In this document: one piece after another, positions 3,104-57,402 of the stretch
How the letters are laid out: each line of letters starts with the position of its first letter
Position numbering within the stretch: position 1 is the first letter of the stretch
NCBI GenBank assembly: GCA_051294905.1
Contig: CM119371.1
Coordinates: forward strand, 34,412,001 to 34,476,000
Length of the DNA: 64,000 bases
From: Botryllus schlosseri
Lineage: Eukaryota
Direction: 5' to 3'
Notes under the pieces: generated by a model
Database searches by the model: none
What the model was told of the DNA's origin: nothing
The model's input: the letters and a program-made list of their open reading frames with translations, nothing else
Translations under genes and position numbers: made by a program

Positions 3104-5200
3104 TAGGGATGGTGTGAACCTCTGAAAGGTTCAGGTTCGTGTGAACGCGAACGTTTTTAAAAGGTTCTGTGTGAACGCGAACGTGAACCTCGTGACGTCA
3201 TATTGCTAATTCCAACCCTATCTTTCAATGAAGTGATAGCCTATATTAATGTACACTAGGGTTGCCATATTTTAGTGAAGCAAATTCCGGACACTCTTTA
3301 GCGCCTCTTAGTGGATTTTAAAATGAGGTGTAGCACATTGGCCGTTAATATGACGTCACACTAGCAAAGCATTGCCCATCGAGGAATGAAGAGGAACATA
3401 GGTCATGAATTGGGCCATCTGTAATGTGAGCTCTGGTGATTGCATGGGTCTCCATGGGGGACTCCATGGGTCAGATGAAATCATCTGACGGGCCGTGGCT
3501 GGCCTGTCAGGATTGTGTTTGACAGCCCTGCTATACAGTTAGGTCGATGCGGCTATCTGTTTGTGTTTTAATCAGGTCCGAAACAACATTTTTTTCTCCC
3601 CCCGCCCCCTCCCGCCCAAAAAGCACTGATCTTGGGCCCACCATAGGGTAGTCGATGTAACTTATTGGGCACTTACTGTATGCATTTGGCTGTTATATTT
3701 TAGGCTGTGTATGAATTCTGTCAATGATATTGATTCTTCGATATATAGGCTACTATAAAATGCACCAGCAGGTTGCACATCCGGTGATTTCCAACCTTTT
3801 ATGTTCGCGACCTCATCTCCCACTTGAAAATGTTCCGTGGCAAAGCTCAAATCTTGATAAGCTGATTACTAAAAAAATTCAGCTTGCCCAAACTTGCACA
3901 CGGCATAGGAAGCTGATTACGTTCAACACCATCGCGATCTCCAGATAATGGCGGACGACCCCAAGATTTGGAGCCACTGTATGTGATTGAAGCATCCAAT
4001 CGGCCTTAACCAACTCTAGGAAAATACCGTTAGCTTATAATTGCGATTACAATCAGACTTATTTCAGTAAATGATGGTTATTTATATTTATGTTGATTGC
4101 ATTTTTTTTTTGCGAGGGTGGTGCCTGAAGCCCGTACTAATATCTTTATACGTTGCAAACTCGCGCGCGGCGCGAAGAACAATTTTGAATAGCATAAATC
4201 TGCTTGAAAATAATATTGTTTATGTTGATTTACGAAAAACTTTTGAGCCTGCTTCAAGCCTTCAAAATTCCGGACATTTAGGCATATTTTAGAAATTCCT
4301 CCCGGACGCAGATTTTTCAGTGAAATTCCGGACATGTCCGGGAAATTCCGGACGTATGGCAACCCTAATGTACACGATACCTAGCGACGACTGGGATCAC
4401 ATAATGCCATAATGCTGAAGTACATTTTGGCGATTTAAACGTCGCTAAATGTATCAACTGGGGCAATCATATGATATAATACTCCCATAAAATCAATATC
4501 ATCCGTGGCTTTGCCAATAATTTGGAAGAGGGTTGCCAGGGAATATAAGCTTACGCCTTAACGGTCTTGACCAGACCAGGCAATGTATTCGTGTATGAGT
4601 ATTGCTACATTGGTATTGGGCAGAGTGTAATACAGGTTTTTATACTTGCTACCGATATTAGGCTTCCCCCTAAAGTTATACAGCTGTAGCCAACACCTCA
4701 ATCGCACGTATTTGGTTTTAATGATACAGTAAACATATGAAGTGAAGATAGACCCCGTACGCTAGCTAGATTTTTAACATCAAAAAACGACATCAATCTC
4801 ATTGATTGGTTGAATCGCTCTCTACATGTTTTGTATGTCGCTCGTGATGTTATGTGATTGCGGGTCAGCTCACAGCAGAGAGTCACTATATATTCACAAA
4901 CGGAAAGTTGGATATTTAGAGCAAAATTTTTGTAACAAAGCAAGTGAAATCTTTGAGATTGTCAAAGTGGATGCTCGTTTTGAGTTGGTTTTTTATGCTG
5001 CCGGCGTCATTGATAGAGTGGCCCGCAGTTGAAATGCAATAAATTCGAACCAAAAATGTCATCATGAAGAGAAAATTGTAATATATGAAAAAGGTTAACA
5101 GTGCAGAACCTACCAAGGTTCTGTTGTGAACGCGAACCTCCAAATTCCCGAGGTTCACACACAGAACGCGAACGTGAGCCTCGCGTTCACACCATCCCTA
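3104..5200 (+). mobile_element. Non-autonomous hAT-type element, family A, copy 1 (~1 kb plus nested insertion)
   Basis: TIR TAGGGATGGTGTGAAC / GTTCACACCATCCCTA. Perfect 8-bp TSD GTAACAGC (3096-3103, 5201-5208). Body homologous to 10808-14318 and 19129-20100. Confidence 0.92.
3257..4367. mobile_element. hAT-type MITE (TAGGGTTGCCATA family) nested in family A copy 1
   Basis: TIR TAGGGTTGCCATA / TATGGCAACCCTA. Perfect TSD ATGTACAC (3249-3256, 4368-4375). Family A copy 2 has the empty site (ATGTACACGATACC near 10963). Confidence 0.92.
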
Positions 5201-5399
5201 GTAACAGCAAATTTCCTTTCAATATTTCGTTTAAAGTTACATGCATTCGTCCTAACTACAATTTCCGCATAGATTGTTTTGATTGTTTTCTGCTCGCAGA
5301 AGCTTCAAGGTTGAGAACCACTGCTTCAGACCGTATTATACTTTCTGTGTTGCAGTAGAGGCATACGATGATAGGCCCCGACTGGATTGCTGGATTGTT

Positions 5400-13564: not shown

Positions 13565-14679
13565 AACTGGGGCAATCAAATGATATAATATTCCCATAAA
13601 ATCAATATCTTCCGTCGCTCTGCCAACAATTTCGACGAGAATTTGCAATGGAATATACGCTTACGGCCAGACCAGAAAATGTATTCGGCGTCTGAGTATT
13701 GCTACGTTGATATTGAGCAAAGTGTAAAACGGGTTTCAATACTGGCTACCGATATTACCTCATTAACAAGTTATACAGCAGTAGCCAACACCCAAATCGC
13801 ACGGATTCGGTTTTTATGATGCAATAAACATTTGAAATCAAGATTGACCCCGTGCGCCTATGTTAGATTTTTTTACATTAGTCAATGATATGTATTTAAT
13901 TGATTGTTTGAAAAAGCATCATTCGCTGACTACCTACATGTAGTGTATTTCGCTCTTGACGTTGCGTGATGGTTGCGGGTCAAGCTCACAGCAGAGAGTC
14001 ACTAAATATTCACAAATGTTAATCTGGATATTTCGAGCAAACTTTTGTAACAAAGCAAGTAAAATTTTTGAAATTTTCAAGGAACATGGTCGTATAATGT
14101 TGATTGTTTTATGCTTCCAGTGCCATGCATAGAGTGGCCCGCAATTGAAATGCAATATATTTCAACCAAAGACGTCATATAATGAAGTGAAAATTGTAAC
14201 ATATGAAAAAGGTTCACAGTGCAGAACCTATCAAGGTTCGTTTGTGAACGTGAACCTCTAAATTCCCGAGGTTCACATACAGAACGCGCACGTGAACCTC
14301 GCGTTCACACCATCCCCAGTATTTAATGAATTTATCAACGTAATATACTTCATTAGCTGTTGATGGCAATGAGATCTGTGGTCGATCAAAGTTGTCGACA
14401 AAAGTTCTTTGAATTCTGGTTGCATGTAGGACGCAGAAACCTTTGGTAAAACTGCACGTGAACAACAGCTGGATTAAAACGCGGCTTTGTCTGTTCATTT
14501 TCATGGTCTGCTTCCAATGTCTGCTCGTAAATGTATGTAGGTAGACCCGAACAGAACAATTAGTTTCAAGGCCACCTTTCTCCGGCCGCGGGCCACACTA
14601 TCATCTAAGACCGCCAACACTCTGCGAGGCCGCTTTAAATCTATTCGGGGCCGGGTCCCCGAGCCCTCCCCTGCCTATA

Positions 14680-15611: not shown

Positions 15612-17409
15612 TACTATAGTATCATTAGCCAACACCATCGGTATGATTATTGTTGTTTTTCTTTGTATGCGCGTTGCACGACTTTGTTGTATTCAATAAT
15701 TTTCTGACCTGGGTGGGCGAGGCTGAATTACAATTTGAGATGTGAACGATTTTCTGAGGTATATGCAATCGATTTAACAAATCGAAAGTTGGATAACTGT
15801 CATAGTTCTGGGAAAGAAAGTGCGAAAGTATGGAAGTATGGACAACAATATCCATGCCATACTTGGGAATTTCCATACTATACCATACTTGCACATTACC
15901 ATATTCCATACCGAATTTTCTTTCCACACCATACCATACCATGCCCTTGCAGCGGCGAAGAGGAAATCACATGTATATGCTCATAAATATAACACCCATC
16001 TTAGCTACCGTTAAGACGACGGATTTATGCGTATCGTGGAAGGTAGAATTGAGTTGCTATTATTTAAGACACTGTTAAATTTGTATAGTGCATACTACAT
16101 GCGAGATGCTTATTGCTTATTGTAGCATTCCTCATGTCATTGGATAACCATAATCCCTCCTCAGCTATTGACAGTAGAGAAGTATTTCTATTCTTTCGAA
16201 CTACTCGAGTATAGGTTTTGCCATACTTAACTGGATATTCTTTTAGACTACTTATGCTGCTACTGGTACTTAACAGATTTCAGTTTTTAGGCTTAACTAG
16301 ACCTATAAAACTTACTGTTGCCGCTGCTTGTACTTGTACTCGAGTAGACTTGCATGACTTCTACTTGAGTACCAACGATGACTACTTTGACCACCTCTGT
16401 CCCTACTGAAAGTAACCATGACCTGACCAATTATCAACCAAACTCTCGCATTCCTCCGCATGCATATGGATTTGTGTTGATTTTTCTGTTTGTTCATTCG
16501 CTAGTATTATGTGAGTGGTCTCTGTCGTTAGTACGATGGAGTTTCTCTGTACACTCTGCTTTATGAATTAAACTGATATTATCTAGTCTAAACGGATATC
16601 AGACCGTGGATAAAACGTTACAGATTTATACGTTTATCACGAGCGACATCTCACAACACGCCACAATGAGGTCACATCCTACGTGCGACACTGGCGGGAA
16701 CTCCCACCATCACCTTCGTAGAGGTTACAACAAATCGATTCCCGAATCTATCAAATGAAGGATGCGATAACGTCAGAGATGTTATCTGGTGCGTGTGAAT
16801 GCGAAAGAACGCTGGTTTCAAAGAATCGAATATGAAAAGAGAATATCAATCGTCAGCAAACGGGTTTCACACCCTAACACATATGTTGAACCGGCTACCA
16901 GGCAAACATGTTTTCACAAAATTGCGCAATGCAATAAATATGAGACCAATCTAAATAAAGCAGGCTATTAGTAATTGGTATTCCAATGGCTTAACGACGT
17001 CTCAGAGGTTGTATCCCGATTATTACTGTTGTTTCAGGTTGTCGAACGCTGCCGGGAGCAACGTGTCACTGCTTAATGTCATGATGAACGGTCTTTATTC
17101 GAAAATGATATATTTTTATGAGTTTAACTGTATACACGCGAGGATTCCAATTCTGAACCGACTCCAGGTCATCCCTGATTCATCGCAGAGACAACAGATT
17201 TCTCGTCGTCAGGAGATGCCATTCGTTCTTTCAATTATGTACATTGGGGTTCACTTTTGTCAAATTCCGCCAACCCATGTTATGCAAACAGAAAGAGTTC
17301 GTGTATCATCTAGAACTGGGCATTGAGCCTAAGGCTAAGCCATCTGTACGCCAATATTATTCGAATTTTTACGTTCTTGACGCCATAGTTGGTGATACGA
17401 CTGTTGACA

Positions 17410-17530
17410 TACAAAGTTCTTTTCAATTCTCGATACACTGCATTTGCTGACGATTAATCCTGAAGAGCGTCAGCCGGGAATTTTCCGGATGGTTTCAATG
17501 TGAATACACCATCCAATACTATTAAACAAC
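17410..17530 (+). repeat. Hammerhead-containing repeat, degenerate copy
   Basis: GCTGACG-ATTAATC-CTGAAGA-GCGTCAGCC-GGGAATTTTCC-GGAT. Homologous to 18872-18990, with the GAAA box mutated. Confidence 0.65.
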
Positions 17531-18911
17531 AACCACCTTTCTGTTGCGAGAGAAGCGATGAACTGTGAGAAGTGACAAAAAGTAAAAGTCATTCTTGAAA
17601 GCTGCTGAATTCCTTAATTCCCTGGTAAAGCTGAATTATATCGAGAGACATATTTATCCCCTGATCGTGTAGTAGCGGGACTCTTGAACGTAAATCTGGA
17701 AAACGAAGAATGGTAGCGTTACGGGAAACTACTGATCCCACGCCAGTTTCGGGAAATGCACCCGAACGGGAAATTGCAACCCTTGGGAATTCTCGATGTG
17801 TTTTTCTGTTGCTGTAACGTATTCCTCTTGCGTCAACTGTCGTTAATTTCCTTTTATTGGACGAACGGAACGTGATTTTTTATACGGTCAACACCATTCT
17901 TCTGGTTTGCCTTACTGATAACGGCTATCAAGGGTAGATTGAAATCGGATATCCACTTCAATCTGTGTTTTCTGACTGATTCTTGGATCCAGCAGCAATG
18001 ATGCTAGTAGAGGAAGTAAACTATTGGGTTTCTTCCACTTTCACAATAAGACGTTTCGTTCTATTTATGTCCCTGGCAGACATACCACACACCAGATGTA
18101 ATACCGCTTGAGTTTTCTCCGACACGCTATAGTATCGATCATTTCATTCTTCGCCGCAGAACAAAGCAGCAAACCGGACGTGATGGGAACTGGCCTGTGT
18201 CAACCTAGTGAACTGTACTTTCCCTTTCGACCCTTAATCTGAATCGAGTATATAAAACAATAGGGCCTGAATCCCTATATTTGTGTGCATAATATATTTA
18301 TAGTTCATATCCTGGCTGTTGGTGCGGTATATTTGCGCAAAGCAAATTCGTTTCTTTTTTGTTCGTGAAAATTACGAAACAACATACCAAGTTACTTGCG
18401 AGGTACCAGTTCCTAATACTCCTTCGTTTCACGAACGTATGTACATTTCATTATTTAATAATATTTTGTATTCATGTTGACATTGAAAGCAGTGGGGAAC
18501 GGCGTGGCAAAATACTGAAAAATGTGGCTTCTTGAAACTGGATCCAAATCCGAACTGAATTGAAGTCCCGCATCTACATTATAATCAATACAATCGTAAG
18601 TCAGTGTCACTTCGGCATTTCCCTTTCAGATACAGTTTAAAAATTCGAAGCTTCATCTTGGAAATTTTCATCGTATAGTTTGTACGAAACGAAACGGTGT
18701 GATACTAATTGTTTAATTACAAGCTGGCTACTAAATATTGGAAACAGAATTAGCATTTCAAAAGGACAAGATTTATATTTCGAACGCCAACCTTAACTGC
18801 GTACGCCACTGCACACAACCAGTGGTGGTGCTACGATTGGGGGCGCTGGGCGAGACTTCCGCGGTGATACGATTGTTGATATACAATGTTCTTTATTATT
18901 CTCTACTAGTT

Positions 18912-18955
18912 GCTGACGATTACCCCTGACGAGTGTCAGCCGAAAATATTCGGGT
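18912..18955 (+). ncRNA. Candidate minimal type I hammerhead ribozyme (Penelope-like element type) within a ~120-bp dispersed repeat (18872-18990)
   Basis: Helix I ACCC(18922-25)/GGGT(18952-55). Core CTGACGA (18926-32). Helix II G18933-C18941. GAAA (18942-45). Palindromic helix III AATATT. UUC cleavage triplet ending at 18951. Loop II TGTCAGC is complementary to upstream GCTGACG (18912-18). Confidence 0.7.
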
Positions 18956-19128
18956 TCATTACAATATGAATATACTATTCAATTGTAAACACTGAAAAAT
19001 GTTTCAAGCGACTTTTAAAAACTAAATGTTTAAGCCACTAATAGAGAATAGGCTACAGGACAGTCAATGAAATGTTTTCAAACGAATGGCCTACTCAGAG
19101 CTGCGTAAGGCAAACGAAATGTAATTGG

Positions 19129-20100
19129 TAGGGATGGTGTGAACGTGAGATACACATTCGCGTTCTGTGAGTGAACCTCCGAAATTGAGAGGTTCACGTT
19201 CACAAACGAACCTTGGTAGGTTCTGCACTGTGAACCTTTTCATGCGCTACCATTTTACGCGTCGTTATAACATCTTTAGTTGCAAATATTTGTATTTAAA
19301 CTTTCCACCACTCTAGGCACGAAGCTGGAAGCATGAAAAAAATCAACACCAAACGGGCATGCTACTTGCCAATCTCAGAAATTTCACTTGCTTCGTTACA
19401 TATTTTTGCTCGAAGAATCCAACTATCTGTTTGTGAATATTTAGTGACTCGCCCTAATGTGAGCTTGACCCACAATCACACAACATCAATAGCGAAATAC
19501 AAAACATATATAGGTGTCAGCGAATGATGCTTATTCAACCAATCAATGAAATTCATTTCATTGTCTGATGTAAAAAATGTAGCAGACGTATGGGGTCAAT
19601 CTCAATTTCATATGTTTAATGTATCATAAAAAAAACAAATCCGTGCGATTGGGGCGCTGGTTACTGATGTGTAACTTGTTAAAGTAATGTCGGTAGCAAG
19701 TACAGAAACCAGTTTTACATTCTGCATAATATCAAAGTAGCAATACTCACACGTCGAATACGTTGTTCGGTCTGGCCTAGACCGTTAAGGCATAAGCTTA
19801 TATTCTCTTGCAATTGCAAGTATCCTCGTCGAAATTGTCGGCAAAGCGACAGAAGATATTGATTTAATGGGATTATTATATCATTTGCCCAAGTTGATAT
19901 ATTTGGCGACGTTTAATACGTCAATATGTATTTCAGCATTGTGGCATAATGTGGCACGAGTCGTCGCTAGGTATCGTGTACATTAATATAGGTTAGCACT
20001 TCACTGTAATGTAGGGTCGGAATTAGTAATATGACGCCACGCGACGTCATGAGGTTGACATTCGCGTTCACGCGAACATGAACCTTTCACACCATCCCCA
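19129..20100 (-). mobile_element. Family A element copy 3, uninterrupted, inverted orientation
   Basis: TIR TAGGGATGGTGTGAA / TTCACACCATCCCCA. TSD GTAATTGG/GTAGTTGG. Reverse-complement homology to copies 1 and 2. Confidence 0.9.
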
Positions 20101-25400: not shown

Positions 25401-27373
25401 AAAAGATATGCAACAAGAAGTAAAGAAGTTGGAACCAAACCAAGTCACGCTCCTAGACCGAATGAAGAGGACCCATCAACACCGCAGAAATCAGATTTTA
25501 GAAGGGGCTCAGTTATCGGATATACTCCTGATTTATCCAGCACTATGGGATGCTCAATGGGTAGGTACAATAGTCTATAGGATAAATTGTCATTGCCACA
25601 GGTGTATCATATCTTATGTATATTAAGATGTTGAAAGAGGCTGAAACCTTGATTGGGTTTGATATTTTGAAGCGCACAACACAGAGCCGCTACAATATAG
25701 CTCAGGCCAAGATAAAGTGGCCTAAAGTTCCCGAAACTATTCAAGGATTACTAGGTGAGAGTATTATTTCATGACATTGTGTGGCATTGCAAATTTTCCG
25801 CTAACAACTTTTTTCGAATGAATTCAAGTGCAGTGGCTCTCTAACTTCTGCCGTTGCGATGCAATTGTAGAAACTTGTTTGACTTGCGCCGCACCAATAA
25901 TCGTGGCTTTCACAATAACATAGTGTCGTACCAGCCAGTTGCAGTTGGATTCATTTCCGAAAATTACACGCGTTCAAAATAAATATCGGAATGCTAGAAG
26001 TGATCATCGAGGGTTCTAATAACCTGTGTCTGCTTTATAGGTGATGGAGTGGTGGATTGGCGTGCTGGTATACCAACCATGTTTGGAGAAGGATACGACA
26101 ATTTTCTTCATATTGGAGAGGTAAGCTATTCGTAGATAGATGGTGTATAATATGCTTTGTTAAAACTAAACAGTTAGTTGTTGATGGTCAACTAGCTAAC
26201 GTTTTTTGATTAGTTGTAGTTCTAATTGCTGATTTTGAAAATTCAGTAGTTGTAGTTCTAGTTGCGGATTTTGAAAATTCAGTAGTTGTAGATAGTTGCT
26301 GATATTGAAAATTCAGTAGTTGTAGTTCTAGTTGCTGATTTTGAAAATTCAGTAGTTGTAGTTCGAGTTGCTGATTTTGAAAATTCAGTAGTTGTAGTTC
26401 TAGTTGCTGATATTGAAAATTTAGTAGTTGTAGTTCTCGTTGCGAATTTTGAAAATTCAGTAGTTGTAGTTAGTTGCTGATATTGAAAATTCAGTAGTTG
26501 TAGTTCTAGTTACTGATTTTGAAAATTCAGTAGATGTAGTTCTAGTTGCTGATTTTGAAAATTCAGTAGTTGTAGTTCTAGGTGCTGATTTTGAAAATTC
26601 AGCAGTTGTAGTTCTAGTTGCGGATTTTGAAAATTCAATACTTTGTACAAGTCTGGTTTCTACGTCGCCATCTTATCCGCGTAAGCGGTGTCTTACAAGA
26701 ATCCTAGAAGTGGGCCGTGCTACAAATCGGCAAATACGGATTAAAAAATGAGGAACACCTGCCTGTTGTAAATGACCATAATGGTAAACCAGTGTTTCAT
26801 AATCAAGTCAATCCATATTTCTTATATACCTTACAACTTCTAGCAATAGAAAGTGGCAAGTTTCAGTAGACCTGGTCCAGGCGTCGCGCATAGCTTAAGT
26901 AACGGATTGGGGCTCATGAGATTGAAATATACTTCATCGCAGCAGACTGACTGGTGACAAGATATTTTTAAAAGCATAAATCAAATAAGCAACATTTTGT
27001 GACACAAATTCATGTTTATAACTTGTGCAGTGGTAATATGAATTGTCCTGTGTGCTAAGCCTATCTCGATATCATAATGATCTGAAGTCAGAAGATTACA
27101 TAGTAATATATCTTTCAGGTTTCTATCTCTCCATATCCAACGCTGGTCTACAATTCGCAATGGAGCCTGCACTTGGATGGAATCGTCTTCTCAAAAAACA
27201 TTGAAAGTTTTGATGAAGTACTTGCTCTTCTGATCGCAGCTCATTGGATATTTAACATCAAATTTCAGAAAAATATCAAGCACACTCTCACCTTCATTTC
27301 GTCCTACCTGCTAAAGCTGCCTGGCGTAGAGCTGACAAATCCTGTTGTGAGGGCTACCAATATGTTGCCATAA
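22469..27373 (+). CDS. SAMD3-like protein (no SAM domain), transposon ORF2; 8 coding exons, 478 aa
   Basis: Exons 22469-22673, 22733-23033, 23912-24005, 25125-25286, 25348-25560, 25628-25754, 26041-26120, 27119-27373. All introns are GT-AG with consistent phases; 1437 nt with no internal stop. Motifs YDKEFTDWVDL, WPVAYDIPTFP, YPTAHQYREVCVALLRNYPVL, WHIALRQKFKDYRR, MKRTHQHRRNQI..LSDILLIYPAL and LALLIAAHWIFNIKF..TLTFI are collinear with the SAMD3 family C-terminal region. AATAAA at 27675-27680. Confidence 0.88.
23122..23306 (+). mobile_element. Short MITE (CAATGTTCCCTCT family) in intron 2
   Basis: TIR CAATGTTCCCTCT / AGATGGAACATTG, TGCGCA-rich body. Second copy at ~29506-29680. Confidence 0.75.
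26211..26638. repeat. 36-bp minisatellite, 12 units, in intron 7
   Basis: Consensus TAGTTGTAGTTCTAGTTGCTGATTTTGAAAATTCAG; units 3 and 8 are 34 bp. Confidence 0.95.
26662..26750 (+). repeat. 3' fragment of the SINE-like family seen at 43376-43593
   Basis: TCGCCAT...ATCCGCGTAAGC.GTGTCTTA.AA...CCTA.AAGT...CCGTGCTACAA matches the reverse complement of 43405-43470. Confidence 0.6.
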
Positions 27374-27764: not shown

Positions 27765-27930
27765 GGGGTGGAAGGTATGTCCCCCATATAGGGTGGAGGG
27801 TATTACCCCATATAGGGCGGAAGGTAGTCCCCCATATAGGGTGGAGGGTATTCCTCCATATAGGGTGGAAGGTAATCCTTATATAGGGGGAGGGTATTTC
27901 CCCATATAGGGTGGAAAGTATTTCCACCAT
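27765..27930. repeat. Subterminal ~24-bp tandem repeats of the CACTA-type element
   Basis: About 7 units of CCCCATATAGGGTGGARGGTATTN directly inside the right TIR. Confidence 0.9.
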
Positions 27931-29505
27931 GATGGGGGGTGGAGTTGCATTCCACCAGAAATGGTCAAAATGGTGAACCACTTTCAATGGAGGAAATCTC
28001 CACCTTTTAGATTTACAGTGATTAGGCATCTACGTGCCAGTCAATACCGCTCCTCGACACATCAAAATACATATGCAGTTTCGGCGAACATGAGACTCTA
28101 CGAAGTGTGCTACTAAAGAAAGACTTTTGCCGAAACTTAGGGTAGGTGTCCATTGTCAATAGCCGCGTTGGGTGGGCGTGACTAACAGTCCATTTCTTTC
28201 AATCTGAGCCCACGATGCAAATGGCACCCGGGCACCCACAGAGCATTAGACATGACAATTTGTGTGTGCGTCTCACGCAAGTTATTCTTTTAGTCTGCTA
28301 TGTTCGGGCCACTACAATCAATATCTTTTGGCTATATAACAGACCGGAGGTCACGAATTAACAACATATAATAAAGTAATTATTGCAAGATACCAGATGT
28401 TATACTTATGAATTACGCGCCCCTGCTCTTCTGGTAAATCTGGCCATCGGGCGCTGAGATAGGATTAAAAATGCAATATAATGCAATCACCAATATTATT
28501 GATTAAATTATATCTTCAACTTCAAAATTGACTACTCTATGGGGGCCCAAGACCAATGTTTGGGTGGGGGAAACTTTTGCTGTTTTGATCCTGATTCTAG
28601 CTACAACCCACGCTAACATGGTATATAAGCCGATGGCTATGGCAGCAGGTCCAAATGTTCAGTAAAGAATTGTGAAATAGCGATTGGCGCCCGTTTTGAG
28701 TAGAATAATATGAGAATAAGAGAAAGTGAACATAAAATTTTGCCTTCAACTTAATGCAGATAATGTAATGCAAGCTGCCATTACGAAAACGGCAAAACAA
28801 CGGCTCAGTTATGATATATATCAGCAGCTGTTGATTTTAATGCTTCGTTGTGGAAACCGTAATATTTCATTTGATGAGTACAAAATTTCAAACGTTTGTC
28901 TGGTGTACGTTCGTACCATATAGGCCTACTTCTCGCCAAGCAGCAACGGTGAAACTGCATTTAACTGCAGAATTAGAACTATTACATTCCATAGTTTAGC
29001 TAAGCAGAACCAAACATCAATACAAAAGTTGCTATTTTAACTTAGGCAGAGAGGTGATTAATAATCCTGTCGCGAGGTAGTGGTGTCTGAAATGTATTGA
29101 TAACCCGATATACAGCACGGTGGGTTTTCTTACAATCACACTAATGTACATCGAATATCTATTTACTATGTGTGGACACTTGTCCCGCAAAGACGAGCAA
29201 AGCTAATAGGCTACCTCTGACGTAATAATGAGGAGTGGCATTTGAAAATCAGACGTTTGTGCTCACAATAACTGGTATAATACCTCTTCCTTGTTCACGA
29301 GGGTTCAGTTTATGTCACAGTCCTTGTACAAATAAAAAGTGATCGTTCTTTCACAAAGAAATCGATTAAATATGGGAAGTAGTCGAGAACGATTACGATT
29401 ACTTCGGAATTTTTTCGAATGTAATCGATTGTAATCGATCGGCTGTAATCGTCTTTATCGATTACGATTACTAATCGCGATTATCCCATGTCTGATACCG
29501 ATAAA

Positions 29506-44689: not shown

Positions 44690-44850
44690 AGATATATATA
44701 ATTGAAGAGCTTCCCGGAGGTACAAAACTACAACATACAATCGAATAGTATATTCATATTGAAACAAACCCAAATATTTTCGGCCGACACTCGCTAGGGG
44801 TAATCGTCAGCAATTAGTGGAGAATTGGAAATAACGTTGTATATCAACAA
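44690..44850 (-). repeat. Hammerhead-containing repeat, copy with mutated core
   Basis: Minus strand: GCTGACGATTACCC-CTAGCGA-GTGTCGGCC-GAAAATATTT-GGGTT...CAATATGAATATACTATTC. Confidence 0.75.
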
Positions 44851-46122
44851 TTTCAATTATGATCCGATTTGGAAAAGCTGTGTTGCTATAATTGTAATTC
44901 TGATCTAAATTAGAAAACCTGAAAATTTTCTAGTCGACCGATTCTACCAACAGGTAGGCTGACCTTGAACATTTCCATACCCAAACCCATTATTCATATT
45001 ATATCACAGCACCCAGCTCAAGTCCATCTATTATGGTAGCTAGTATAGGTTCAAAGGTCACGCGAGATCTGTCAAAAGCTGAGCAGTTGCTAACACAGTT
45101 TTGCAAATGTCTTAAATCATAATTCCACATGATCTCGCCAGCATTGGAAAGTCGCGTTATTCAAGTCTAAATTCGAATCAGCACACATATCCGACCTTGA
45201 TAACTGATATAATCGTCACTCTCCAGCGTCTGAAGCAATGTATGCCAAATGAATACATTGATCAAGTAAATCATTCTTACATAGCCAGGAAATTGTGCAG
45301 TATTTATTGAGTGAAATTATTTAAAATAGTTTATTCATTCGACGATCGACGTCTCAACCACAACCAATGCCAATTCATTTACACATTTATAACATTCCAG
45401 TTAGCTCTGTGGCAACTACATTTCTACACACCAGTTCCTATGCTTGGAAAATCCCTATCGGTCACAGTATATTGAGTGCATAGCAACTCTCATTTCCGGT
45501 GCTAAATTGTGAATTTGATCATGTAACGACTTCGCAATTTGTATAACCAGGAGCATATAACTCTGGAATGTATTATCTATGATAACTCTTTATATTATGC
45601 TCTATATATACAGTTGTACTTTGTTGTGGCCATAGGTAACACGGATAAGTATCGTGCAACTTGCATTCTCATTTATATGTCATAACCATGACCATCATCT
45701 ATTAGAGAAATCATGGAGCAGTGATGCAATCCTATGACATTACACACCCAGAGAATAAGAAGTATCCGAAACGAATACATGACAAACGCAATACGTATTT
45801 ACTACGTACATGATCCACTTTCAGTCGTTCAATCGTCACGTTTCGGAAGGGAAGACATTGCGATGCCAGCGAAGTAAGCCACATGAAGTATATACAATAA
45901 ATACATATCATACGTCTTCAAAAAGATACGGTTACTAGTAATTCAATAAAGGGGTGTCATGTATTGTCCATGTAACTAAAGTCGAGTCCTGTATTAGCAA
46001 CACCCAGGCGCAATTTCGTAGCCCGGGGTATTACCCCGGTATTATTTTGATTGCTCATTAAAATGCATGGTCATGTGATTGTTGATCTTATTATGTTTCA
46101 ACCACTGTCTCAGCGGCAGCAT

Positions 46123-46130
46123 TATAAAAG
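46123..46130 (+). promoter_or_regulatory. Candidate TATA box of E2 gene 1
   Basis: Consensus TATAAAAG beginning 52 bp upstream of the ATG at 46175. Confidence 0.6.
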
Positions 46131-46174
46131 AAGCATATCAATATATTTACATTATAACCAAGAATTCGGGTTTT

Positions 46175-46633
46175 ATGGCAAAGACTCGACTTCAATTCGA
46201 GTGCCGCAAAATCACTCAGGAAATACAAGAAAACCCTGAAATCGTGCACGCCGCACCGTTCGACGATTCGGATCTATATTTTTGGAAGGCCATAATCCGC
46301 GGACCACCCGGGTCGCCTTACGAAGGCGGAAAATTCCATCTTAGCGTGCGATTCACGACAGAGTATCCCTTCAAGCCGCCAAAAGTGAAGTTCGAAACGC
46401 GAATTTTTCACCCGAACATCAGTCGAAAAGGAACCGTGTGTGTTGATATCCTAGCTGGCGAGTGGTCGCCTGTGATGACTTTGGCGACTGTTTTGGTGTC
46501 TATTTCGTCGTTGCTTGGTTCTCCTAACCCAGACGATCCGATGGACCAGGAAAGTGCTGCGCTACATCGAGAGGACTACCCCGCCTATTTGAAGACAGCG
46601 ATAAGATGGACGGAACAGCACGCGAAAACGTGA
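46175..46633 (+). CDS. UBE2D-like: Ubiquitin-conjugating enzyme E2, UBE2D/Ubc4-like, intronless, 152 aa (copy 1)
   Basis: Complete UBC fold: GPPGSPYEGG, YPFKPPKV, HPNIS...VCVDIL with catalytic Cys, WSP, PNPDDP. Start set at ATG 46175 by alignment with copies 2 and 3. AATAAA at 46819-46824. Confidence 0.95.
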   Translation: MAKTRLQFECRKITQEIQENPEIVHAAPFDDSDLYFWKAIIRGPPGSPYEGGKFHLSVRFTTEYPFKPPKVKFETRIFHPNISRKGTVCVDILAGEWSPVMTLATVLVSISSLLGSPNPDDPMDQESAALHREDYPAYLKTAIRWTEQHAKT

Positions 46634-50602: not shown

Positions 50603-50679
50603 TGAGTTGCTTCTGATGTCGACATCACGTTATAGCTGAAAGTCAATAATTGGTCGCAACGAGAGAGGGTTGATATTTT

Positions 50680-51135
50680 ATGGCGAAGAATCGGCTGCAG
50701 TTCGAGTGTCGAAAGATCGCTCAAGAAATACAAGCGAATCCCGAGATCTTACAAGCAGGGCCGCTGGACGACTCGAACATCTACGTTTGGCAAGCAATAT
50801 TGCGAGGACCATCTGAAACACCATACGAGGGCGGAAGATTCCAGCTTAGAGTCGAATTTCCAACGGAATATCCATTCAAGCCCCCCAAAATTAAGTTCGA
50901 AACCAAAATTTTCCATCCGAATATAAGTCGACGGGGTACAGTCTGCGTTGATATCCTCGCCAACGAGTGGTCTCCTGCTTTAACTTTAGTGAAGGTGCTG
51001 GTGTCGATTTCATCATTGCTAGCTTCACCGAATCCAGACGACCCAATGGATGCAGAAAGCGCTCGATTGTACCAAGAGAATTTCGCGCATTATCAGACAA
51101 TGGCGAGGAATTGGACGGATGCGTATGCCAGATGA
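50680..51135 (+). CDS. UBE2D-like: Ubiquitin-conjugating enzyme E2, UBE2D/Ubc4-like, intronless, 151 aa (copy 2)
   Basis: Complete UBC fold with HPN motif and catalytic Cys (HPNISRRGTVCVDIL), YPFKPP, WSPAL, PNPDDP. Confidence 0.95.
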   Translation: MAKNRLQFECRKIAQEIQANPEILQAGPLDDSNIYVWQAILRGPSETPYEGGRFQLRVEFPTEYPFKPPKIKFETKIFHPNISRRGTVCVDILANEWSPALTLVKVLVSISSLLASPNPDDPMDAESARLYQENFAHYQTMARNWTDAYAR

Positions 51136-54280: not shown

Positions 54281-54519
54281 AATGTCCATTCTCGGTAATG
54301 TCCATTCTAGTTAATATACATTCTCGGTAATGTCCATCCTCGGTAAAATCCATTCTCGGTGGTGTCCATTCTCGGTAAAATCCATTCGCGGTGGTATCCA
54401 TTCTCGGTAATATACATTCTCGGTAGTGTCCATTCTCGGTAATGTCCATTCTCGGTAGTGTCCATTCTCGGTGGTGTCAATTCTCGGTAATGTCCATTCT
54501 CGGTAATGGCATTCTCGGT
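54281..54519. repeat. 16-bp minisatellite, ~15 units
   Basis: Consensus AATGTCCATTCTCGGT, head-to-tail with no spacers. Confidence 0.95.
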
Positions 54520-55271
54520 CATGAGAATTAGAAAAAGGTATTACCAAATCTGGCTATGCGCACCGGAGGAAAAACAAAAATCAATTTAAAACAAACATGT
54601 TTAAAAGATGGCGCATGTTTCAAACTTATTTTCAGCCATTTCGTCACGAATCGTTAATTTCGACGTCTTAATGGATTGACATTGACAATTAAAATGATAG
54701 GGTCGATATAACTCCTTTGACGAAAAAGTCTTCCGACCCCTGTCTTAAACGAGCCGAAAACTATCTTTCACAAGGACTACATCGTTATGCAGCATTTTTC
54801 TGCCGTCAGGAGATGTCCAAAGTCATGATATAATATTTTCTAATCTAAGCCGAACACCAAATTTTTCAAACCCTGATTTCGACTGTTATCAAAGCCAATT
54901 TAAACCCACATTCGATAACAAGACAACAAATGAGTAAATAAAAAGCTGATTATATCCGATATTATCAGAATGCTATTTGCAACCTAATTCAGCTTTACAA
55001 ACATCGTAAATCCAAATGCAGATCCCTTACTGGGAGTTACCCTTGAAAGTAGCTTGGATCAGACTCCACAATTAGTCAGTCTGATAGTGGCGTTATCATA
55101 CTGGTCCGTATCAACTGAATCCACATATTATAGAAGTGACATTTCTGATACTAATAGCAAGGAATGTCTGACAACCTTTTAACCGAAGAACGCGGTAGCT
55201 GAAGTGAGGACGTCATTCAACATGCCGATAAATGGCGGTCGGAATTGGCAGATACTAATGTCACTCTGTAG

Positions 55272-55764: not shown

Positions 55765-55847
55765 CTCTGGAGGCGTATACCGACAGGCACATGATTGGAC
55801 TATATTCCTAAAACTGAATGAAGAGCTTCATGGAGGTACAGAACTTT

Positions 55848-56050
55848 AATATACAATTGAATGGTGTATTCATATTAAAATAAATCGTAATATTTCGGCT
55901 GACACTCGTCAATCGTCATAGGTAATCGTCAGAGACTAGTAGAGAATTGAAGATAATACTGCATATCTACTTATTGCTGACGATTGCCCATGGCGAGTGT
56001 CAGCCGAAAATATTTGGGTTCAATTCAATATTAATATACTATGCAACTCA
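55848..56050. repeat. Inverted pair of hammerhead-containing repeats
   Basis: Minus copy ~55848-55967 (core region with a TGACGA duplication) and plus copy ~55972-56050 (GCTGACGATTGCCC-ATGGCGA-GTGTCAGCC-GAAAATATTT-GGGTT). Confidence 0.75.
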
Positions 56051-56946: not shown

Positions 56947-57402
56947 ATGGCAAAGAACAGGCTGCAGTTCGAGTGGCGAAAGATTGCTCAAGAAATCCAA
57001 GCGAATCCCGAGATTTCACAAGCAGGACCGCTGGACGACTCGAATATATACGTTTGGCAAGCCATATTGCGCGGACCATCGGAAACACCGTACGAGGGAG
57101 GGAGATTTCATCTGAGAATTGAATTTCCAACGGAATATCCATTCAAGCCTCCGAAAATCAAATTCGAAACCAAGATTTTCCATCCAAACATAAGTCAAAG
57201 GGGTACCGTCTGTGTCGACATCCTCGCCAATGAGTGGTCGCCAGCTTTGACTTTGGTAAAGGTGCTGGTGTCGATTTCATCATTGCTAGCTTCACCGAAT
57301 CCGGACGATCCAATGGATGCCGAAAGCGCCAAGATGTACCAAGACGACTACATTCGTTATCAGAAGACGGCACGAAATTGGACGGATACGTATGCCAAAT
57401 GA
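56947..57402 (+). CDS. UBE2D-like: Ubiquitin-conjugating enzyme E2, UBE2D/Ubc4-like, intronless, 151 aa (copy 3)
   Basis: Complete UBC fold (HPNISQRGTVCVDIL); 135/151 residues identical to copy 2 by manual count. Confidence 0.95.
   Translation: MAKNRLQFEWRKIAQEIQANPEISQAGPLDDSNIYVWQAILRGPSETPYEGGRFHLRIEFPTEYPFKPPKIKFETKIFHPNISQRGTVCVDILANEWSPALTLVKVLVSISSLLASPNPDDPMDAESAKMYQDDYIRYQKTARNWTDTYAK

What the first reader, a model, noticed from the sequence alone, without database searches (positions are those of the whole stretch)
18912..18955. Pseudoknotted minimal hammerhead ribozyme in a dispersed ~120-bp repeat (5 copies)
Seen: ACCC-CTGACGA-G[TGTCAGC]C-GAAA-ATAT-TC-GGGT has every conserved hammerhead nucleotide in type I order, with a 1-bp helix II, a palindromic helix III (AATATT) too short to fold alone, and a UUC site. 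Loop II can form 7 pairs with GCTGACG just 5' of helix I. Loop II variants in other copies keep the pairing: CGTCAGC at ~17468 turns G-U into G-C, and TGTCGGC at ~44785 turns U-A into U-G. Established: minimal type I hammerheads with palindromic helix III occur in Penelope-like element terminal repeats and cleave as dimers. Inference: these are solo Penelope-like terminal repeats or a small ribozyme-bearing retro-element family, with a pseudoknot replacing the usual loop-loop contact. Only this copy has a complete core.
Basis: partly seen in the sequence, partly recalled or inferred. Interest (0 to 1): 0.8.

Follow-up and report, generated by a model that had tools for sequence, protein, structure and literature searches.

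The report
Pseudoknotted hammerhead ribozyme of Penelope retrotransposons
The motif is the small self-cutting RNA carried at the end of a very abundant Penelope-like jumping gene; that kind is known, but here its second stem is replaced by a pseudoknot kept by matching changes across many related jumping-gene families, a form we did not find described for these elements and not yet shown to cut.

Summary
Observation confirmed. The repeat is the 3' end (pLTR) of a Penelope-like element: an intact 848-aa RT plus GIY-YIG-like ORF lies between two 99.6%-identical copies. The 44-nt motif occurs letter for letter 2,539 times in the genome, so the intact core is the family norm. Eight PLE families of this genome and one from metagenome contigs (endonucleases 39-80% identical) keep a 1-bp helix II. 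In nine aligned representatives, 53 of 54 cells of pairs 1-6 are Watson-Crick, with two-sided changes at four pairs. The seventh pair is an invariant G opposite any base, like the G:A cap of the crystallised PK hammerhead (8YDC), but helix IV is absent and helix III is a minimal palindrome, implying dimers. Cleavage is untested; RNA reads show no ends at the site. The scan noted a knotted stem in this genome's UUGAAAA-core family before (e1-7786987). Verdict: new variant of a known kind; Lünse 2017 could not be read.

The parts
18864..18989 (+). Solo, 5'-truncated 3' end (pLTR piece) of Penelope-like family A, short-ended form without the ~38-nt tail
   Evidence: 96% identical over 126 nt to the end of the intact element in L011
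18912..18918 (+). Pseudoknot 5' strand GCTGACG; positions 1-6 pair Watson-Crick with loop II, position 7 (G in all families) faces loop nt 1
   Evidence: covariation
18922..18925 (+). Helix I 5' strand ACCC (4 bp in this family; 6-7 bp in A3, B, D, E)
18926..18932 (+). Catalytic core C3-A9 (CTGACGA); the C3-G8 pair is U-A in families B, C and A4
18933..18941 (+). One-base-pair helix II (G10.1-C11.1) closing the 7-nt loop II TGTCAGC, the 3' strand of the pseudoknot
   Evidence: a 6-nt loop is at background, 7 nt and 7+1 nt are enriched
18942..18951 (+). G12-A14, palindromic minimal helix III AATATT (A15.1-U16.1), and C17; predicted cut after 18951
   Evidence: helix III is a palindrome or near-palindrome in 8 of 8 representatives
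18952..18955 (+). Helix I 3' strand GGGT
18966..18968 (+). Likely start codon of the PLE ORF, 14 nt after the predicted cut; here followed only by the first codons
   Evidence: the same ATG opens the 848-aa ORF in L011
44698..44851 (-). Decayed copy of the same element end, long-ended (tail) form; core broken (CTAGCGA)
   Evidence: 88% identical to the element
55819..55970 (-). Left arm of an inverted head-to-head pair, tail form, with a 7-nt insertion before the core
55966..56042 (+). Right arm of the inverted pair, short-ended form; core broken (ATGGCGA)
17188..17512 (+). Decayed 3' end of a more distant PLE copy or family, with endonuclease C-terminus and ribozyme remnant (GAAA read as GGGA)
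   Evidence: 68.6% DNA identity; tblastn 59% over 44 aa

Best explanation
The motif is the type I hammerhead ribozyme in the pseudo-LTR of an EN+ Penelope-like retrotransposon (shown). It belongs to a group of PLE families whose hammerhead has traded the usual hairpin helix II for a pseudoknot. G10.1-C11.1 closes a 7-nt loop that pairs, over 6 Watson-Crick pairs plus a G-N cap, with the 7 nt lying directly 5' of a 7-nt helix I segment (shown by covariation). This helix probably stacks on G10.1-C11.1 and stands parallel to helix I, doing the job of helix II and the loop-loop contact at once, as in the crystallised PK hammerhead but without its helix IV (inferred). Helix III is only a 6-8 nt palindrome, so cleavage should need two ribozymes, as on a transcript spanning both pLTRs of a full-length element (inferred from published PLE hammerheads). 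The cut after C17 would free a unit-length RNA whose 5'-OH end lies 3-23 nt before the first ATG (distance shown; role inferred). Thousands of 5'-truncated integrations left solo ends such as the 18912 copy; alone they are predicted to fold into inactive hairpins and are read through in host RNA.
For: Intact ORF between two 479-nt repeats at 99.6% identity; RVT_1 E 7.8e-9; GIY-YIG E 0.015 in family A and 1.3e-4 in family D. Inverted truncated pairs and two 3'-end classes about 38 nt apart (21 and 21 of 45 ends), as described for PLEs (bioRxiv 10.1101/2021.04.23.441226, passages). 2,539 exact 44-mers, control 0. Nine representatives: pseudoknot pairs 1-6 standard in 53 of 54 cells, two-sided changes at pairs 1, 2, 4, 5; 0 of 500 shuffles reach the covariation score; slid registers pair 19-40% against 89%. 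Helix I and C3-G8 covary in the same rows. Six families: 35 of 36 Watson-Crick pairs, reached by 1 of 720 loop permutations. Sister families D and E (80% identical endonuclease) differ by two double changes; family A5 changes pair 3 from U-A to C-G. In family E, 3 of 3 AGTTAGT loops among 86 hits carry the matching A in the flank. A 1-bp helix II with a 6-bp pseudoknot is active in print (PMC3088659 section 7; PMC11300833).
Against: No cleavage data. RNA reads cover the ribozyme deeply, show no place where many molecules begin or end, and are nearly absent over the ORF's 5' part. Family A has the weakest parts: helix I of 4 bp and a helix III dimer duplex of only -0.2 kcal/mol, and its monomer minimum-energy fold is two inactive hairpins. 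Published PLE hammerheads are slow even as dimers (PMC4209133), and viral type I hammerheads with a 1-bp helix II cleave at about 0.01 per minute (PMC13725137 section 12). Family B, with many copies, has a mismatch at pair 1. Rfam gives no hammerhead hit. Representatives were chosen by me and are related; three pairs were fixed by the metagenome search pattern. Other repeated core-like families in the genome do not show the pairing.
Confidence: 0.8

Rival explanations
1. The fold is kept for another job (binding of the PLE protein, priming, translation) and cleaves negligibly, at least in family A.
For: Weak helix I and helix III dimer in family A; no read ends at the site; low in vitro activity of published PLE hammerheads; some PLE clades lack hammerheads altogether.
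Against: All catalytic positions are kept across families with 39-80% identical endonucleases, including the C3-G8 to U-A swap; non-coding derivatives lose core, helix III and pseudoknot together.
Confidence: 0.12
2. The pseudoknot stabilises the core enough for cleavage as a monomer, so solo copies could cut host transcripts.
For: The pseudoknot duplex is strong (-7.8 to -10.7 kcal/mol); families B and C could close a 2-bp helix III with a 3-4 nt loop.
Against: In A, A3, D, E and M helix III is a perfect 6-nt palindrome that leaves a 2-nt loop; RNA reads span the site in abundance; 2,539 perfect copies are tolerated.
Confidence: 0.1
3. The flank:loop II helix is an alternative, inhibitory hairpin (or a DNA hairpin) that excludes the active fold rather than being part of it.
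For: Nested folding programs form this helix without helix I in several families, and loop II can also pair with the core itself in A, A3, E and M.
Against: Without it helix II is one base pair. It spares every catalytic base, keeps a fixed register to helix I (0-1 nt linker) and copies the G:A-capped geometry of an active crystal structure. The core:loop hairpin is absent in B and C while the flank:loop helix is kept.
Confidence: 0.06
4. Chance look-alike at the end of a MITE or Helitron.
For: No Rfam hit; MITE-like non-coding derivatives of related ends exist in the genome.
Against: The repeat flanks an intact RT-endonuclease ORF and follows its C-terminus in many loci.
Confidence: 0.01

Closest known systems
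Minimal type I hammerheads in the pLTRs of Penelope-like elements (Cervera and De la Pena 2014, PMC4209133; Lünse et al. 2017, seen only through reviews)
   Same: Place in the pLTR, type I order, minimal palindromic helix III, short helix I, the U3-A8 core variant, mostly solo copies and some on opposite strands.
   Different: All 56 representatives in its Fig. S3 have a hairpin helix II of at least 3 bp, most with an extra base after A9; reviews say PLE hammerheads lack tertiary contacts. Here helix II is 1 bp and loop II forms a covarying pseudoknot.
PK hammerhead (Zhan et al. 2024, PMC11300833, PDB 8YDC; first found by Weinberg et al. 2015, not held)
   Same: A single G10.1-C11.1 pair closes a loop wholly used in a pseudoknot helix capped by G:A; core order CUGANGA-G-loop-C-GAAA.
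   Different: There the loop is 6 nt, the partner strand sits in the loop of helix IV joined to helix I by an A-rich triple-helix linker, and helix III is long. Here the loop is 7 nt (or 7+1), the partner runs straight into helix I, there is no helix IV, and helix III is minimal.
Pseudoknotted hammerheads of types I-III (Perreault et al. 2011, PMC3088659)
   Same: A pseudoknot between stems I and II replaces the loop-loop contact; a 1-bp stem II with a 6-bp pseudoknot cleaves above 1.2 per minute.
   Different: The tested 1-bp case is a metagenomic type II ribozyme with a full stem III; highly repetitive type I ribozymes were left out of the stem-length analysis.
Short-helix-II type I hammerheads in 5' UTRs of fungal and plant RNA viruses (PMC13725137)
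   Same: Type I, helix II of 0-2 bp, cut site a few nt before a start codon; cleavage reported to drive cap-independent translation.
   Different: Long helix III, monomeric, viral; no pseudoknot described in the passages read.

Membership tests
Hammerhead ribozyme, type I | Core C3-U4-G5-A6-N7-G8-A9, G12-A13-A14, A15.1-U16.1, H17 in type I order | tested here: met
   conserved in 9 of 9 representatives, with U3-A8 in two
Hammerhead ribozyme, type I | Helix I next to the core and G10.1-C11.1 | tested here: met
   helix I 95.6% paired with two-sided changes at 4 of 5 pairs; G10.1-C11.1 in 9 of 9
Hammerhead ribozyme, type I | Helix III able to close in one molecule | tested here: not met
   a 6-nt palindrome leaves a 2-nt loop; complete only as a dimer
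Hammerhead ribozyme, type I | Match to an Rfam hammerhead model | tested here: not met
   no hammerhead family among 6 matches at E<=5
Hammerhead ribozyme, type I | Self-cleavage after position 17 | not testable with these tools
   RNA-seq reads show no pile of ends, which fragmented cDNA libraries need not show
Minimal PLE hammerhead (Cervera 2014) | Located in the pLTR of a PLE | tested here: met
Minimal PLE hammerhead (Cervera 2014) | Minimal palindromic helix III | tested here: met
   8 of 8 representatives palindromic or with a central mismatch
Minimal PLE hammerhead (Cervera 2014) | Hairpin helix II of several base pairs, usually with an extra base between 9 and 10.1 | tested here: not met
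   1-bp helix II and no extra base against 56 of 56 listed with at least 3 bp
PK hammerhead (8YDC type) | One-pair helix II whose loop forms a capped pseudoknot helix | tested here: met
   7-nt loop here, 6-nt there
PK hammerhead (8YDC type) | Helix IV and A-minor linker carrying the partner strand | tested here: not met
   the partner strand is followed by 0-1 nt and then the 7-nt helix I segment, leaving no room for the 3' strand of a helix IV and its linker
EN+ Penelope-like element | Single ORF with RT and C-terminal GIY-YIG endonuclease | tested here: met
   848 aa, RVT_1 E 7.8e-9; GIY-YIG below Pfam's cut-off in A (E 0.015), at the cut-off in D, not found in B
EN+ Penelope-like element | Pseudo-LTRs, inverted 5'-truncated partner, 30-40 nt tail at one end | tested here: met
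   against the description
EN+ Penelope-like element | Assignment to the Penelope/Poseidon clade | tested here: inconclusive
   DKG motif present and no linker zinc finger by reading P0001 (criteria); no tree with named references was built
EN+ Penelope-like element | Intron in the pLTR or 5' UTR | tested here: inconclusive
   a pyrimidine tract and AG precede the pseudoknot strand in families A and B, not in C, D or M; no splice joint among the 15 joints shown of 190
Non-LTR retrozyme | Non-coding tandem repeats with one hammerhead per unit | tested here: not met
   copies are dispersed ends of a coding element; definition

The most novel reading that the evidence does not exclude
A clade of animal Penelope-like elements uses a stripped-down pseudoknot hammerhead (no helix IV) that is fast once two copies pair through helix III. 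It would act as a sensor for full-length, two-pLTR transcripts: only those are cut, and the 5'-OH end 3-23 nt before the AUG licenses translation or circularisation of the RT-endonuclease message, while thousands of solo copies stay silent in host RNA.
Probability: 0.3. Interest if true: 0.72.

Novelty: new variant of a known kind. Interest (0 to 1): 0.5.

Why it matters
The role of hammerheads in Penelope-like elements is an open question, partly because those tested were slow and are said to lack tertiary contacts. This group has a covariation-supported tertiary helix of a type that gives fast cleavage elsewhere. It comes in a natural series of at least nine families, with an intact young element and decayed derivatives as controls, so the activity and the dimer gate can be tested directly. 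Descriptors that require a hairpin helix II, and Rfam, miss it, so some PLE families scored as lacking hammerheads may carry this form. As an RNA it would be a very compact pseudoknot hammerhead of about 47 nt. Both ingredients are known separately, which limits the surprise.

Tried and rejected
Rfam scan of the window: no hammerhead. Viral contigs: no relative of the endonuclease, one pattern match without helix I or III, taken as chance, none for a second pattern. A 6-nt loop II: 274 matches against 464 for the control. My first reading that the loop is exactly 7 nt was dropped after (780 against 147 for 8 nt; families A4 and A5 add one U). My first idea that loop nt 1 is an unpaired linker was softened after the G:A cap in 8YDC; the two readings are not separated. 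Repeated core-like families with loops GTGGACT, TCCTCGT, CCCAGAC/A and CGACACCG were checked in L034, L074, L075, L079 and L210: no 4-bp helix I with U16.1/H17 and no PLE protein nearby; those with loops TAGAGAC and AGAATTC/A were seen only in the listing and not checked. Of 228 core matches in the loci then held, 180 passed my helix I test and 48 failed. Families F, H and I were left out of the final alignment as non-coding and decayed; with F and H included the result was similar (87.5% paired, 0 of 500 shuffles). RNA reads: no RNA holder listed by the index; laid reads gave no cleavage signature and no splice joint among those shown. The tree of nine endonuclease ends has 1 of 6 well-supported inner branches and a long branch for M, so it supports only the D-E pair firmly. 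DNA-type searches of the genome returned no answer, so copy numbers are exact-match counts, that is, lower bounds.

Full report
What is there. The window lies at G000:C1:34412001-34476000 in a 495.5-Mb genome of 219 contigs. Blastn finds five copies in the window. A covariance model returns the same five and nothing else under E 0.04. Rfam has no hammerhead match. Genome-wide, the first 22 nt match exactly 4,746 times and the whole 44-mer 2,539 times, with 0 matches for the reversed controls. The intact core is therefore the family norm; the four other window copies are decayed.

What it belongs to. I fetched 20 regions chosen for neighbouring matches among the first 100 listed. Three of the 20, and three of the first eight loci, hold long RT or endonuclease frames; one, L011, holds a complete frame. 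[quoted passage not shown] The frame lies between two direct repeats of 479 nt at 99.6% identity, each holding the ribozyme, and its first ATG is 14 nt after the predicted cut. Most other loci are inverted, 5'-truncated pairs. Of 45 mapped 3' ends, 21 stop about 23-39 nt after the cut site, 21 about 67-76 nt after it, one between, and two run on into the frame (the query lacked 5 nt at a join, so positions are approximate). This is the pLTR, inverted-copy and 30-40 nt tail pattern described for Penelope-like elements (bioRxiv 10.1101/2021.04.23.441226, passages). In the window, 55819-55970 (-) with 55966-56042 (+) is such a pair, 44698-44851 (-) is a tailed end, 18864-18989 a short end, and 17188-17512 a more distant copy. 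By reading, the protein has the DKG motif and no linker zinc finger, which points to the Penelope/Poseidon type; no tree with named references was made.

Is the pseudoknot real? I searched the genome for the core with a free 7-nt loop, excluding the main family at position 7: 2,185 matches against 100 for the control. A 6-nt loop is at background (274 against 464); an 8-nt loop is enriched (780 against 147). The listings (first 100 each) and fetched loci gave further families next to PLE endonuclease ends: B (TGTGCCG with AGGCACC), C (CGTGCCG with AGGCACG), D (TCTGGCG with AGCCAGA), E (ACTGACG with AGTCAGT), A3 (GCTGACG with CGTCAGC), A4 (as A, with U3-A8 core and one extra U) and A5 (GCCGACG with TGTTGGC). 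Of 47 such matches with at least 280 nt upstream, 19 follow a PLE endonuclease end. M did not appear among the first 100 matches, which cover contig C1, so it is probably from another host; the host was not determined. Endonuclease ends of the nine families are 39-80% identical.

In an alignment of nine representatives (A, A3, B, C, D, E and two E subfamilies, M), pairs 1-6 of the pseudoknot are standard in 53 of 54 cells, with changes on both sides at pairs 1, 2, 4 and 5. None of 500 shuffles reaches the covariation score, and slid registers pair 19-40% against 89%. Helix I (4 of 5 pairs) and C3-G8 covary in the same rows, so both helices are kept together, which is a pseudoknot. Dealing loops among six families gives the observed 35 of 36 Watson-Crick pairs in 1 of 720 permutations. 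Relatedness inflates such numbers, but separate events are visible: sisters D and E (tree support 97/93) differ by two double changes; A5 turns pair 3 from U-A to C-G; and in family E all 3 AGTTAGT loops among 86 hits carry the matching A. Three pairs were fixed by the metagenome pattern, so for M only pairs 1, 2 and 5 are free evidence. The seventh position is a G in every flank, facing U, C, A or G; it is non-canonical in 6 of 9 rows. Against: family B has a mismatch at pair 1, and several repeated core-like families lack the pairing, though those checked also lack helix I and a PLE neighbour. Non-coding, MITE-like units made of two inverted arms (families F, H, I) have lost core, helix III and pseudoknot pairs together.

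How it most likely works. The local signature equals that of the crystallised PK hammerhead: one G10.1-C11.1 pair closing a loop wholly used in a helix capped by G:A (PMC11300833, parts 1-2 and passages). There the partner strand sits in the loop of helix IV; here it runs, after 0-1 nt, straight into a 7-nt helix I segment that pairs over 4-7 bp. I infer a parallel pseudoknot and helix I joined by a direct crossover. Helix III is a 6-8 nt palindrome or near-palindrome in 8 of 8 representatives, which by the published model needs a second ribozyme (PMC4209133 parts 1-2; PMC6765202 section 11 part 2). A transcript across both pLTRs supplies it; an inverted pair or a solo end does not. The monomer of family A folds by minimum energy into two inactive hairpins, and its helix III dimer is the weakest of the set at -0.2 kcal/mol, so this family may be slow. 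The first ATG lies 3-23 nt after the cut in all eight representatives; cleavage-driven translation is reported for viral type I hammerheads (PMC13725137 abstract, section 12 and passages), which makes a role in defining the message plausible but untested.

RNA. Three RNA runs (3-6% of each read) and one DNA run were laid on L011:5300-6500. Reads pile over the pLTR part in both directions (depth up to about 600-2,700) and fall to 0-2 over most of the ORF's 5' part; 68-98% run on into unrelated sequence. They are passengers in host transcripts, and the full element looks nearly silent in these samples. No place shows many molecules beginning or ending. This neither shows nor excludes cleavage of dimers.

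What is in print. Hammerheads in pLTRs are known. All 56 representatives of Cervera and De la Pena's Fig. S3 have a hairpin helix II of at least 3 bp (supplement parts 1-2 of 3), and two reviews say PLE hammerheads lack tertiary contacts (PMC6155905 and PMC7761336, passages). Pseudoknotted hammerheads of all three types, and an active one with a 1-bp stem II, are known (PMC3088659, passages and section 7). Searches combining hammerhead, Penelope, pseudoknot, dimers, retrotransposon, stem II and pLTR listed 2, 15, 12, 6 and 6 papers; those I opened (also PMC10085705, PMC12192606, PMC6466107, passages; bioRxiv 10.64898/2026.07.22.740005, part 1 and a word search) did not describe a pseudoknotted PLE hammerhead; the rest I saw as listings only. 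Lünse et al. 2017, Weinberg et al. 2015, Hammann et al. 2012 and Arkhipova et al. 2017 are not held. From recall, not from a call, Lünse's abstract says most earlier hammerheads have a pseudoknot or other contact between nucleotides before stem I and loop II; its alignments could hold this form. Supplements of the preprints and Perreault's alignment file were not seen. This scan noted a knotted second stem in the UUGAAAA-core family of this genome before (e1-7786987); that is probably my family B.

Verdict. It is a Penelope-like pLTR hammerhead (about 0.97), with a real pseudoknot in place of helix II (about 0.9), probably active as a dimer (about 0.7). Both ingredients are known; the combination, without helix IV and gated by a minimal helix III, was not found in print. 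New variant of a known kind; interest 0.5.

Noticed in passing
L031-L033, L036, L037, L045, L063, L064, L077, L078: Non-coding units of about 550-600 bp built from two inverted, decayed pLTR and ribozyme arms; copies are 90-96% identical over the whole unit and have no PLE protein match, so an inverted PLE pair seems to have been amplified as a MITE-like unit.
   Followed up: partly
L031, L032, L036, L037, L045: In family I loop II reads GGAAACC, which could close a 3-bp hairpin helix II with G10.1-C11.1 while the pseudoknot pairs are lost; helix III is broken there.
   Followed up: partly
L080-L202: In metagenome family M the first ATG lies inside helix I, 3 nt after the cut site, and 44 of 124 matches have U3 opposite G or A8 (43 TTGAAGA or similar U3-G8).
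   Followed up: partly
L011:6126-6145 (minus strand); L030, L046: A pyrimidine tract ending in AG lies just before the pseudoknot strand in families A and B, like the intron end next to helix I reported for D. virilis Penelope; absent in C, D, M; no splice joint seen.
   Followed up: partly
window 46079-46633, 50674-51135, 56947-57402: Three paralogous ubiquitin-conjugating enzyme (UQ_con) frames, each covering nearly the whole domain in one exon, 72-86% identical in DNA.
   Followed up: partly
window 4366-5203, 13565-14321, 19129-19985: A dispersed repeat of about 800 bp, three copies at 78-80% identity, one starting 140 nt after the ribozyme copy.
   Followed up: no
window 26211-26643, 27766-27965, 54281-54523, 2708-2883: Short tandem arrays (self-matches offset by about 72-73, 80 and 84 nt), the first related to 2708-2882.
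   Followed up: no
G000:C2:688390, C1:16115156, C1:21964256, C2:29142996 and others: Repeated families that match the core pattern with loops TCCTCGT, CCCAGAC/A, TAGAGAC and AGAATTC/A but lack the flank pairing; nature unknown.
   Followed up: partly
L016; L025: A tandem cluster of BTB-kelch-like frames in L016 and a LINE-like RT frame of 673 aa beside a ribozyme copy in L025, both named by reading only.
   Followed up: no
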